From Escherichia phage PA16: 62,708 nt of DNA. The stretch is from the sequence record KP682377.1; one strand, 5' to 3'. Numbering within the stretch: position 1 is the first letter of the stretch; each line of letters begins with the position of its first letter. Of this stretch, positions 57,001-60,000 are shown in pieces. The position numbers were made by a program.

Positions 57001-60000
57001 TTGTCACGCCAGCAGGCGGCGTCTCTTGCCAAAAACATGACGGTGAACTTTAACCGTCGTGGTGAGCAGGGGGCGCTGATGAATTCGCTGTACATGTTCG
57101 CCAACGCCAGCATTCAGGGAACGGCAAATCTGGTGAGAACGCTCGGACATCTTAATGGTGAGGGACCTTTACTGGAGCGCCTTCGCTGGAAGAATCTGAA
57201 TGTTCCGCAGAAAATCGCGCTTGCCGCTGTGGGAGCAGGTTATCTGCTTGGCTCGCTTAACCGCAGCGTGGCGGGTGAGGATGATGACGGGGTTAACTGG
57301 TATGACAAGGTGCCGTCTCATGTGAAAGAGCGTAACCTCGTCATTATGAAATCGGTGTTCGGGGGCAAGGCCGGAGAGTACTGGAGTATTCCTCTGCCTT
57401 ACGGGTACAACGTTTTCTTCCTGCTCGGGCATACTGCTGAAGGTGTGGCGGCGGGTGACCTGACGGCGTCCCGTGCTGCCGGTAATGTTGTTGGTGGTGT
57501 GCTTGGTGCATTCAGCCCGATTGGCAGTGAGACGTCGGAAACACTGTCCGGGGCATTGCTGAAAAATGCAGCGCCGACCATTCTGCGTCCGTTTGCGAAC
57601 CTTGCCATGAATGAAAACTTCATGGGGGCGCAGATTTACCAGGAGAACATGCCGTTTGGTACACCAAAACCTGACAGCCAGCTGGGAAGACGTTCAACGC
57701 CAGAAGCGTACAAGGCGTTTGCATCCTGGCTGAATGCGTTCTCAGGTGGCAGCCAGTACCGTCCCGGCGCGGTGGATATCACACCGGAATCGCTGAAATT
57801 CTGGATTGACTATATCTCCGGAGGGACAGGGCGCTTCATTTCCAAAACCACGGATGCGGCGGTGAAATCGCTGAATGGTATTGATATACCGGAACAGCAG
57901 GTGCCCTTCCTGGGGAAAATTTCGGGGGAGGTGATGCCGTATGCAGACCAGCAGAAGATGTACGACCGGATGACAGAGATTGCGCAGTATCACGCAGAGC
58001 TGAAGAGTCTGACCGGTGCAGAAAGAACGGCGTTCATTGACGAGAACAACGGAAAATTGTCGATGAACGGGCTTATGCAGGATACCCGGAAGAGACTGAA
58101 GGATTTGCGTAAACAGCGTGATGCCATTTACGCCGACAGTACTCTCAGTCTGGCGCAACAGTCGGCGATGGTGAAATCGGTAGAGCGGGATATGAAAATT
58201 GCCGTGGATCGGTTTAACCGCGAGTACAACAAAAAAGTGGGAGTGGATTAACAGAAATGGCCCCGTACGGAAGTGCGGGGCTGATTAAGAAATAAACACT
58301 CATTGACCTGTAATAACCGGAGCTATTAACATATAGTCAGAAGAGCATTTCATGTGATACAGAGAGCCGATTTATGTTTAATGAAGAAAAAGTTGCGCAA
58401 ATGGCAGCGTATTTGCTGAAAAAGCATGGCGGATCTATGCGTTTCATTAAGCTGAAGCAGCAACGGTAATGGCGAATAGCATTTATGAGCAAAATAATCT
58501 TGATATGTTATTAGGCGATCTGATGTAACCGGGATGATGTTCACCCCTTATCGCCGGGGAACAATACCGGCAATCAGAATTGCGGATGGAACTATTCAGG
58601 CCCACGATGATATCGATGAGGAGTTTTTTCAGCCAGTATTGGATGGCTTTCTTATATCCAAATATACGCCATTTGACATCCTCCACGCCCTGAAGGACGG
58701 GGTTTTACAGCGCACCGGATAAGATTCGGTGTTTTGTTGAAAAATACTGTGATAACAAACAGAAAACCCGTCAGTAAGACGGGCTTAGCAAGCTGGGACG
58801 GTTACTTTAATAATTTCAGTGCCTTTACATCCACTTCAACACTGCTCAGGTCTTTATCAATTTCACCCTCAATTCTTACTTTGTCTTTCGGAGAAACATT
58901 CTGACCGGCCCATATGCTGTCATCGATATCCGTGACAATTGTCCCGCTATTGTCACGAAACTCATAACGTTCATCACCCACTTTTTTAACGATGCTCCCT
59001 TCAAGGATAACCCATGCATCATCCTTCAGTTCTTTTGCCTGCGCTACTGTTGAACGCTCTGCTTCAGGCCCTTGGAAACCGCCCTGCTGTGCAAAAGCGC
59101 CAAAAGACACACCAGAAATAAGTGCTGCAATCAATACCTTTTTCATTCATAGTCCTCTTTCAGAGATGAACATTCAAACAGCATTTTCAGTATGGTAAAG
59201 CGCGGGTGCGTTGAGGATGCCTGACACATCAGAGGTGGCGGGAGATTACTCCCCCGCTTGGTCTCTTACTTCTCAGATTCGTAGTCTACGAAGACAGCGA
59301 CCTCCGTCTGACCGGTTCGGATTCGCACCTCGCAGAGGTCTTTCCTCGTTACCAGTGCCGTCACTATGACGGTTAAACAGATGACGATCAGGGCGATTAA
59401 CATCGCCTTTTGCTGCTTCATAGCCTGCTTCTCCTTGCCTTTCGGCACGTAAGAGGCTAACCTACATGTGTTCAGCATGGATTGAGCCTCAGATTAATGT
59501 TAAGCGTCTTGCCGGACGCGTAATGTTAACTGGGGCTTTTCTCTATCTGCCGTTGGTGTTCATGCCCGAGGCAGATAGCCTCAAGCACCCGCAGCAATTC
59601 TACTTAACTCTCCTTTTCCCGCAAACCGTTTTTATCTCCAGCGACAAATCGAATACACAACCAGCACCACCGCCATTACTGTTCCTACATTTGCGAATGC
59701 TTCAGGCCAGGTCATTGATTCACCTTCTGCTCAATATTTTTAAGGTCATTTTCCGCATACAGTATTGCAGTTCTTGCTGCCCGCAACCGTGCTTTGGTGT
59801 TCTTTTCTTCACGCTCGAGGCTGGCAACAGATTCTCGGAGCTGATCGTGTCTGTTATGAAGCTGTCTAATCTCTCTCACCACAGCCTCACCATCGTTCGC
59901 ACACCGCAGAACATACTGAAAAGGGTCCACAACACATCCGCACTGCAAGCACAGGATAACGTGATCCTGTTCATGAACCTCAATGGCCCGATGCTTACAG

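What the first reader, a model, noticed from the sequence alone, without database searches (positions are those of the whole stretch)
59150..59480. Canonical hokD/relF-like toxin gene in the right-end cargo block
The internal start of the 59266..59478 ORF gives a 51-aa peptide near-identical by recall to E. coli HokD/RelF. The N-terminal extension in the track ORF may correspond to an overlapping mok-like frame. Together with the Hok-like ORF at 46466 the prophage may carry two type I toxin loci.
Basis: partly seen in the sequence, partly recalled or inferred. Interest (0 to 1): 0.45.

Follow-up and report, generated by a model that had tools for sequence, protein, structure and literature searches.

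The report
Known hokW-sokW toxin-antitoxin locus
This is the hokW/mokW/sokW toxin-antitoxin cassette of Shiga-toxin phages such as 933W and Sp5; it is already annotated and has been tested experimentally on identical DNA, so the finding is correct but ordinary.

Summary
ORF 59266..59478 (- strand) exists, and its internal ATG at 59421 gives a 51-aa peptide that is 47/51 identical to E. coli K-12 HokD/RelF. All four differences lie in the last 7 residues. The peptide matches Pfam HOK_GEF at E = 4e-23.

The window is an Stx2a phage with the same length and coordinates as phage PA4. Bases 59150-59650 are 100% identical to phage 933W, where they are annotated hokW, mokW (the in-frame 70-aa extension) and sokW antisense RNA (window 59470-59540, + strand). 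They are also 100% identical to Sp5/VT2-Sakai.

Takada et al. 2021 (PMC8621323) showed on this sequence that HokW is toxic and that SokW neutralises it from its own promoter. They also showed that the locus speeds lysis and doubles phage release after induction. All their primers map exactly onto the window.

Unlike K-12 hokD, a truncated remnant, this locus keeps the 5'/3' (tac-fbi) closure, the mok start, the Sok target hairpin and the Sok promoter and terminator.

Two points differ from typical hokD-type cassettes. Its own 3' terminator is missing, so the transcript probably runs into a YgiW-like gene. A second, divergent Hok locus sits at 46317-46671.

Verdict: already known, low interest.

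The parts
59194..59636 (-). Conserved hok/sok cassette: the block shared with hokD-type loci of other E. coli strains and of non-Stx phages
   Evidence: Matches at 86-95% identity in other phages and E. coli chromosomes begin at 59194 and end at about 59602-59636.
59597..59625 (-). Predicted hokW mRNA promoter: -10 TAGAAT at 59602..59597, with a weak -35 TTTGCG or TTGCGG at about 59625..59619. The start site is inferred to be G 59590.
   Evidence: Read directly from the sequence. It fell below the strict consensus scan. The start site is inferred from position 1 of the Rfam model and has not been mapped experimentally.
59579..59590 (-). tac element: the 5' end of hokW mRNA, GGGUGCUUGAGG
   Evidence: It pairs with 59216..59204 in the minimum-free-energy fold of 59590..59198 (z = -5.8).
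59416..59590 (-). hokW/mokW mRNA leader, matched by Rfam RF01794 'sok'. The hit lies on the hok-sense strand.
   Evidence: 113.5 bits, model positions 1-157 of 157, with a 16-nt insertion in the loop of the long hairpin.
59476..59490 (-). mokW ribosome-binding site (GAGG) and ATG (59478..59476), inside the region covered by SokW
   Evidence: plus the mokW annotation in 933W.
59465..59479 (-). Sok-target hairpin CAUG-CUGAACA-CAUG. Its loop begins with CUGA, which fits the YUNR U-turn motif.
   Evidence: It is a hairpin in the Rfam consensus structure. The U-turn motif is interpreted from established hok/sok knowledge (Franch et al. 1999, cited from memory).
59266..59478 (-). mokW CDS: 70 aa, in frame with hokW and sharing its stop codon
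59266..59421 (-). hokW CDS: 51-aa membrane toxin, with the Shine-Dalgarno sequence AGGAG at 59435..59431
   Evidence: This exact insert (59421..59266), cloned in pBAD24, was toxic in Takada 2021.
59435..59463 (+). sokW promoter: -35 TTGCCT (59435-59440), 17-nt spacer, -10 TAACCT (59458-59463)
   Evidence: The Takada 'pro-less' primer YO-421 changes this -10 to GAGCCG, which abolished protection.
59470..59540 (+). sokW antisense RNA, 71 nt: a single-stranded 5' tail, a long hairpin and a GGGGCUUU(U) tail
   Evidence: It is the 933W misc_RNA at 58664-58734, offset by +806. The fold is -31.5 kcal/mol, z = -5.2. Northern probe YO-592 maps to 59470-59499 and detected the RNA.
59238..59257 (-). GC-rich hairpin in the hokW 3' UTR: GCGGGGGAG-UA-AUCUCCCGC
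59204..59216 (-). fbi element CCUCAACGCACCC, complementary to tac with one bulged base
   Evidence: It is conserved in K-12 and N47 hokD.
58802..59146 (-). YgiW/YdeI-family (BOF) periplasmic OB-fold gene, 57 nt downstream of fbi on the same strand. No terminator or consensus promoter lies between them, so co-transcription is possible.
   Evidence: Pfam BOF 113.7 bits and NCBIfam stress_OB_fold 136.4 bits. There is no hairpin in 59225..59140, and the scans found nothing.
58764..58786 (-). First intrinsic-terminator-like hairpin downstream of hokW on the - strand, lying after the BOF gene

Best explanation
This is the hokW-mokW-sokW type I toxin-antitoxin cassette of 933W/Sp5-type Shiga-toxin phages, intact and functional.

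A stable - strand mRNA starts at about 59590. It is held translationally inert because its 5' end (tac, 59590-59579) pairs with fbi (59216-59204).

HokW is a 51-aa inner-membrane toxin. By analogy with the R1 locus, it is translated only through coupling to the upstream in-frame mokW start at 59478.

The unstable 71-nt antisense RNA SokW (59470-59540, + strand) is made from its own promoter, TTGCCT-17-TAACCT. It pairs over the mokW ribosome-binding site and start codon. This blocks translation and marks the duplex for RNase III.

When SokW disappears, as it does after RecA-dependent prophage induction, HokW is made. It inserts into the inner membrane, stops growth about 40 min earlier and roughly doubles phage release.

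Shown experimentally on identical DNA (Takada 2021): HokW toxicity, SokW antitoxin activity and its promoter, partial dependence on RNase III and Hfq, loss of SokW and appearance of HokW after mitomycin C, and membrane localisation.

Inferred here from sequence and from the R1 hok/sok paradigm: tac-fbi closure, mok-hok coupling, the U-turn target loop and the hokW transcription start.
For: - Bases 59150-59650 are 100% identical to 933W, VT2-Sakai/Sp5 and 40+ other Stx phages. The 933W record annotates mokW, hokW and sokW at the corresponding coordinates.
- The peptide matches Pfam HOK_GEF at E 4.3e-23. It is 47/51 identical to K-12 HokD, with an identical transmembrane segment.
- The leader gives a full-length Rfam RF01794 hit of 113.5 bits.
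- The minimum-free-energy fold of the 393-nt mRNA closes the 5' end on the 3' fbi, z = -5.8.
- SokW folds into a hairpin with a U tail, z = -5.2.
- The experiments are in PMC8621323. All of their primers and probes map exactly to the window: the toxic insert is 59421..59266, the SokW probe is 59470-59499, and the promoter-less mutation falls in TAACCT at 59458-59463.
Against: - The consensus promoter and terminator scans found nothing in 59100-59750. Both promoters have weak hexamers, and the SokW terminator tail has too few U residues for the scan.
- In Takada 2021 RNase III and Hfq were only partly required, so repression is not fully explained by the R1 model.
- mok-hok coupling, 3' processing and the hokW start site have not been shown for this locus.
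- The cassette's own 3' terminator is absent. The R1-style step of trimming from a nearby 3' end may therefore not apply as such.
- The biological role is also not settled. The lysis and release effect is about 2-fold, comes from one laboratory and was measured in a K-12 lysogen.
Confidence: 0.95

Rival explanations
1. The gene is an inactive relic like K-12 hokD/relF: a toxin ORF without working regulation or expression. The PA4 record's product name, 'RelF inactive antibacterial toxin protein', suggests this.
For: The PA4-series records carry that product name. K-12 hokD really is truncated: its homology starts only about 14 nt upstream of the hok ATG, and mok, sok and tac are absent.
Against: The window keeps the whole leader, mokW, the sokW promoter and terminator, and tac-fbi. 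Identical DNA gave a toxic HokW, a detectable SokW and a deletion phenotype.
Confidence: 0.02
2. The main role is prophage or episome maintenance by post-segregational killing. Cells that lose the prophage lose the unstable SokW, and the stable hokW mRNA then kills them. This is how hok/sok works on plasmid R1, and the 933W annotation says 'prophage maintenance'.
For: The 933W annotation note. The architecture is the same as R1 hok/sok, with a stable closed mRNA and an unstable antisense RNA.
Against: There is no experimental test of prophage stability. Deleting the locus did not change growth of the lysogen, and the measured phenotype appeared on induction. An integrated prophage is lost mainly by excision, which in any case leads to lytic growth.
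Confidence: 0.25
3. The main role is defence of the lysogen against other phages by abortive infection. An infecting phage shuts off host transcription, SokW decays, and HokW kills the cell before the invader matures. This has been reported for R1 hok/sok against T4.
For: Takada 2021's discussion cites exclusion of T4 by R1 hok/sok. The locus lies in an accessory block next to other lysogenic-conversion-type genes (the YgiW-like gene; lom upstream of the second locus).
Against: This has not been tested for hokW. No defence phenotype is reported in the papers found.
Confidence: 0.2

Closest known systems
hokW-mokW-sokW of phage 933W (AF125520) and Sp5/VT2-Sakai (Plunkett et al. 1999 annotation; Takada et al. 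2021, PMC8621323)
   Same: The DNA is 100% identical over 59150-59650 and over 58780-59720. The neighbours are the same: the YgiW-like gene downstream and the L0139-like gene upstream.
   Different: Nothing in the locus differs. The host record (PA4 series) merely mislabels it 'RelF inactive antibacterial toxin protein' and annotates neither mokW nor sokW.
E. coli K-12 hokD (relF), third gene of the relBEF operon in the Qin prophage
   Same: The toxin is 47/51 identical. The 3' UTR and the fbi element are conserved.
   Different: K-12 hokD is cut about 14 nt upstream of the ATG and fused to relE. It has no mok start, no sok gene and no tac. It keeps the 3' terminator hairpin, which the window lacks.
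Full-length chromosomal and prophage hokD-type loci (for example strain N47; present in most E. coli genomes)
   Same: The cassette is the same from promoter to fbi at 90-96% identity, including the leader, the mok start and the sok gene.
   Different: These loci end in a canonical terminator, AACCCGCUUCGGCGGGUUUU. In the window the homology breaks inside that hairpin's left arm and a YgiW-like gene follows. The C-terminal 7 residues of the toxin also differ.
hok/mok/sok of plasmid R1 (parB), the paradigm type I toxin-antitoxin system
   Same: The logic is the same: a Hok-family toxin, an upstream mok frame, a cis-antisense Sok over the mok initiation region, and tac-fbi closure. HokW and Hok are 44% identical according to Takada 2021.
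   Different: mokW is in frame with hokW, as in the gef/hokC type. From memory of the R1 sequence, R1 mok is out of frame. The loop of the long hairpin carries a 16-nt insertion relative to the Rfam consensus. The locus is on a phage, and its reported role is aid to lysis on induction rather than plasmid stabilisation.

Membership tests
hok/sok type I toxin-antitoxin family | A small (about 50 aa) Hok/Gef-family membrane toxin with an N-terminal transmembrane helix and conserved Cys | tested here: met
   Pfam PF01848 at 81.1 bits against a cut-off of 22. The peptide is 92% identical to HokD, with residues 1-44 identical. NCBIfam Hok-family models match below their strict cut-offs.
hok/sok type I toxin-antitoxin family | A mok reading frame that starts upstream of hok and overlaps it | tested here: met
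   A 70-codon ORF at 59478..59266, in frame with hokW and preceded by GAGG 8 nt upstream. It is annotated mokW in 933W. Translational coupling itself was not tested.
hok/sok type I toxin-antitoxin family | A cis-encoded antisense RNA (Sok) with its own promoter and terminator, overlapping the mok initiation region | tested here: met
   The promoter is at 59435-59463 and the RNA at 59470-59540, and the RNA folds into a hairpin plus U tail. The RNA was detected, and the promoter mutation abolished protection, on identical DNA.
hok/sok type I toxin-antitoxin family | Long-range 5'-3' pairing (tac-fbi) that closes the full-length mRNA | tested here: met
   GGGUGCUUGAGG (59590-59579) pairs with CCUCAACGCACCC (59216-59204) in both the minimum-free-energy and the centroid structures, z = -5.8. 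The second locus in the window has a different but again complementary pair.
hok/sok type I toxin-antitoxin family | A conserved leader structure matching the Rfam RF01794 covariance model | tested here: met
   113.5 bits against a gathering score of 59, covering the full model length.
hok/sok type I toxin-antitoxin family | A Sok-target hairpin with a YUNR U-turn loop | tested here: met
   The hairpin CAUG-CUGAACA-CAUG at 59479-59465 has a loop starting with CUGA, and it is a hairpin in the Rfam consensus structure. The kinetic role of the loop was not tested.
hok/sok type I toxin-antitoxin family | A terminator close to fbi, and slow 3' trimming that activates the mRNA (with the ucb/dcb refolding) | tested here: inconclusive
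   There is no terminator hairpin after fbi. The first one on that strand is at 58786-58764, after the YgiW-like gene. Takada 2021 saw two shorter hokW RNAs of unknown nature. The ucb/dcb elements were not analysed.
hok/sok type I toxin-antitoxin family | A toxin that kills or arrests cells, and an antisense RNA that neutralises it | not testable with these tools
   This was shown in the literature on identical sequence (PMC8621323).

The most novel reading that the evidence does not exclude
The published open question is what makes SokW vanish and HokW appear on induction. The gene layout may answer it.

hokW lies at the downstream end of a co-oriented - strand gene block (62171..59712), with no terminator before it. 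After excision and circularisation, this block becomes the continuation of the leftward pL operon (N, cIII, ..., xis, int, then attP). N-antiterminated sense read-through would run head-on into the convergent sokW promoter and silence it. It would also produce 5'-extended hokW transcripts whose tac is no longer a free 5' end, which may make them translatable.

In addition, the cassette has lost its own terminator. The long-lived hokW mRNA may therefore double as the carrier transcript for the YgiW-like stress-tolerance gene in lysogens.
Probability: 0.25. Interest if true: 0.4.

Novelty: already known. Interest (0 to 1): 0.1.

Why it matters
The finding adds little, because the locus is annotated (933W, 1999) and functionally characterised (Sp5, 2021). 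The practical value is in correcting annotation. [quoted passage not shown]

Two smaller points could be tested cheaply. The first is the loss of the cassette's terminator, with possible co-transcription of a YgiW-like gene. The second is possible read-through from the upstream or pL operon as the induction trigger. Both bear on how Stx phage release is timed.

Tried and rejected
- **Consensus scans.** The sigma-70 and terminator scans of 59100-59750 found nothing. I did not take this as evidence against the locus. The sokW promoter (TTGCCT / TAACCT) and the hokW promoter (TAGAAT with a weak -35) fall below the scan's thresholds, and the sokW promoter is validated by mutagenesis in the literature.
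- **Rfam hit as the position of Sok.** The Rfam 'sok' hit is on the - strand, which is hok-sense. I rejected reading it as the position of the Sok gene. The model covers the hok leader up to the hok start codon, and SokW itself is the + strand complement of part of it.
- **Inactive-relic reading.** I considered the 'inactive RelF' reading from the PA4 annotation and rejected it.
- **Literature search on 'mokW'.** It returned only unrelated papers.
- **Promoter for the YgiW-like gene.** I looked in the 57-nt gap for a promoter of its own and found none by scan.
- **mok-like ORF at the second locus.** No mok-like ORF overlaps the second Hok gene. There is only a 24-codon GTG ORF that ends 29 nt before its ATG.
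- **Searches not run.** I did not run the large protein-database searches, structure prediction or fold searches. The identity of the locus was settled by exact DNA identity to annotated and tested records.

Full report
**What is there**

On the - strand, ORF 59266..59478 encodes 70 aa. Its internal ATG at 59421 is preceded by AGGAG 9 nt upstream. It gives the 51-aa peptide MKQQKAMLIALIVICLTVIVTALVTRKDLCEVRIRTGQTEVAVFVDYESEK.

This peptide matches Pfam HOK_GEF at 81.1 bits, E 4.3e-23. I fetched the K-12-type hokD gene from strain DH1, where it sits directly after relB-relE. The two peptides are 47/51 identical, and all four differences fall in the last seven residues. The transmembrane segment and both cysteines are unchanged. 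Its own refutation criteria, divergence from the family or damage to the transmembrane segment, are not met.

**Identity of the window and the locus**

Bases 59150-59650 are 100% identical to more than 40 Stx-converting phages. The PA4 series (KP682372 and others) has exactly the window's length (62708) and coordinates. The window therefore corresponds to an Stx2a phage of O157:H7.

This fits the other Rfam hits in the window: the lambda cIII thermometer, three tRNAs, and AsxR. It also fits the layout at the left end:
- int, 29-1339, - strand
- xis
- N, 8877-9149, - strand
- cI, 10901-11596, - strand

In the 933W record (AF125520) the identical DNA is annotated as follows. Window coordinates are obtained by adding 806.
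- mokW: 933W 58460-58672, window 59266-59478, - strand
- hokW: 933W 58460-58615, window 59266-59421, - strand
- sokW antisense RNA: 933W 58664-58734, window 59470-59540, + strand

The PA4 record annotates only the 51-aa ORF, as 'RelF inactive antibacterial toxin protein'.

**Experimental status**

Takada et al. 2021 (PMC8621323) studied this locus in Sp5/VT2-Sakai, which is also 100% identical. I mapped their oligonucleotides onto the window, and all match exactly.
- The pBAD24-hokW insert is 59421..59266, which is exactly the 51-aa ORF. Inducing it arrested growth.
- The pBAD18-hokW-sokW insert is 59721..59115. It was not toxic unless the sokW -10 element was mutated.
- Primer YO-421 differs from the window at four bases. 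These convert TAACCT (59458-59463) to GAGCCG.
- sokW supplied in trans partly restored growth.
- Protection partly needed RNase III and Hfq.
- In an MG1655-Sp5 lysogen, SokW (probe at 59470-59499) disappeared quickly after mitomycin C, while hokW mRNA persisted.
- HokW-3FLAG appeared after 2 h in a RecA-dependent way and fractionated with the inner membrane.
- Deleting the locus delayed growth arrest by about 40 min and halved the released phage.

**Anatomy checked here**

- **Leader.** A full-length Rfam RF01794 hit of 113.5 bits lies at 59590..59416. It is on the hok-sense strand and runs to the hok start codon. It therefore marks the mRNA leader, not the Sok gene itself.
- **Closure of the mRNA.** Folding 59590..59198 gives a minimum-free-energy structure in which the first 12 nt (GGGUGCUUGAGG) pair with CCUCAACGCACCC at 59216-59204. 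This is the tac-fbi closure of the R1 paradigm. The fold has z = -5.8 against shuffles.
- **SokW.** It folds into a single-stranded 5' tail followed by a long hairpin and a GGGGCUUUU tail, z = -5.2. It covers the mokW Shine-Dalgarno sequence (GAGG, 59490-59487) and ATG (59478-59476).
- **Sok target.** The target region contains the hairpin CAUG-CUGAACA-CAUG (59479-59465). Its loop starts with a YUNR motif.
- **hokW promoter.** I read it as TAGAAT (59602-59597) with a weak -35, and a start at G 59590. This is a prediction.
- **Scans.** The strict consensus scans found neither of the two promoters nor the SokW terminator. This reflects their weak hexamers and the short U tail.

**Relation to hokD**

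The DNA alignment shows that K-12 hokD shares the window's sequence only from about 14 nt upstream of the hok ATG down to just past fbi. Upstream of that point K-12 has relE. K-12 hokD therefore lacks the mok start, the sok gene and tac.

A full-length hokD-type locus, from strain N47, aligns with the window across the whole leader. Across 5426 complete E. coli genomes:
- 4710 have a match to the query.
- 3813 have a match covering at least 80% of it.
- Most matches are at 90-95% identity and are annotated hokD.
- About 300 replicon records carry the 99% or higher hokW form.

In other phages the shared block is window 59194 to about 59602-59636. This delimits a cassette of about 420-440 bp.

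**A difference from the paradigm**

hokD-type loci end with a canonical terminator, AACCCGCUUCGGCGGGUUUU, right after fbi. In the window, homology breaks inside the left arm of that hairpin. The 86 nt after fbi fold no better than shuffled sequence, z = +0.5.

A YgiW/YdeI-family OB-fold gene (58802-59146, - strand) starts 57 nt after fbi, with no consensus promoter in between. The first terminator-like hairpin on that strand is at 58786-58764. The link between hokW and the YgiW-like gene is found only in the Stx phages.

I infer that hokW transcripts may extend through the YgiW-like gene. In that case, activation by 3' trimming as in R1 cannot work in quite the same way. Takada 2021 saw two shorter hokW RNAs of unknown origin.

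**Context and a possible trigger (inference)**

Upstream of hokW, all genes from 62171 to 59712 are on the - strand. They include an antirepressor-like gene, a TraR-type zinc finger gene, and an Ead/Ea22 plus DUF551 gene. No terminator-like site lies before hokW other than two weak ones inside coding sequence.

After excision and circularisation, this block lies directly downstream of int in the leftward pL operon. This resembles the b region of lambda. Read-through in the hok-sense direction would collide with the convergent sokW promoter. That would fit the rapid, RecA-dependent loss of SokW. It is untested.

**The second Hok locus**

The ORF at 46466-46606 (+ strand, 46 aa) matches HOK_GEF at 33.2 bits, E 4e-8. 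It lies between the lom terminator and the L0129-like gene. It is not annotated in 933W or PA4. It is called 'MokW-like host killing' in phi346 and 'Hok/Gef family protein' in RefSeq genomes, and it is present in 1675 of 5426 genomes.

- Its leader gives a full-length but sub-threshold Rfam sok hit of 35.6 bits, E 2e-6 in a local search.
- The 363-nt fold closes GGGUGCCUUUCGGCUGA (46317-46333) on UCAGCCGAUAUGGCACCC (46654-46671), z = -7.3. Compared with hokW, both arms have changed together.
- An antisense promoter, TTGACT-18-TAACCT, lies on the - strand at 46460-46431.
- No mok-like ORF overlaps the toxin gene.

**Verdict**

The finding is confirmed and correctly interpreted, but the locus is already known and characterised. 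Interest is low. The remaining value lies in the annotation correction and the two small testable points above.

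Noticed in passing
window 46317-46671 (+); toxin ORF 46466-46606: A second, divergent hok/sok-type locus lies between lom and the L0129-like gene. The 46-aa peptide matches Pfam HOK_GEF at 33.2 bits, and the leader gives a sub-threshold Rfam sok hit of 35.6 bits. Its own complementary 5'/3' pair (46317-46333 with 46654-46671) closes the fold at z = -7.3. An antisense promoter TTGACT-18-TAACCT lies at 46460-46431 (-). No mok-like ORF overlaps the toxin gene. The locus is not annotated in 933W or PA4, is called 'Hok/Gef family protein' by PGAP, and is present in 1675 of 5426 E. coli genomes. I found no experimental work on it.
   Followed up: partly
window 59140-59225 (-) and 58764-59146 (-): The hokW cassette has lost the terminator hairpin that follows fbi in hokD-type loci. 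A YgiW/YdeI-family OB-fold gene starts 57 nt downstream, with no consensus promoter in between. The first terminator is at 58786-58764. This suggests a hokW plus ygiW-like co-transcript. The arrangement is specific to Stx phages.
   Followed up: partly
window 59416-59590 (-): The Rfam family RF01794, named 'sok antitoxin', matches the hok-sense strand: the mRNA leader from the 5' end to the hok start codon. The annotated and experimentally detected SokW is on the opposite strand, at 59470-59540. Taking the Rfam strand at face value would misplace the antitoxin gene.
   Followed up: yes
window 59712-62171 (-) and 1-9149 (-): All genes between the right end and hokW are on the same strand as the leftward pL operon (N ... 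xis, int). No clear terminator lies before hokW. After circularisation they would form a b-region-like extension of pL. This is a possible route for induction-dependent read-through into hokW and against the sokW promoter.
   Followed up: partly
window 60107-61494 (-) versus 2410-5094 (-): The right-end block repeats the product names of the left-arm genes in the PA4 record ('EaA protein', 'FIG00639888', 'putative zinc-finger containing protein'). This suggests paralogous Ea-type modules on both sides of the attachment site.
   Followed up: no
window 62212-62300 (-) and 62390-62419 (-): An Rfam sRNA-Xcc1 hit of 69.1 bits lies just upstream of the antirepressor-like gene (61542-62171). A good promoter-like site, TTGACA-18-CATACT, lies at 62419..62390 on the same strand.
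   Followed up: no
window 25208-25324 (-): An ALIL pseudoknot hit of 121.5 bits, the frameshift element of IS3-family transposases, indicates an insertion sequence inside the phage's late region.
   Followed up: no
window 59266-59421 (-), PA4-series GenBank records: The product name 'RelF inactive antibacterial toxin protein' in KP682372 and its sister records is misleading for an intact and experimentally active toxin. mokW and sokW are not annotated in those records.
   Followed up: yes
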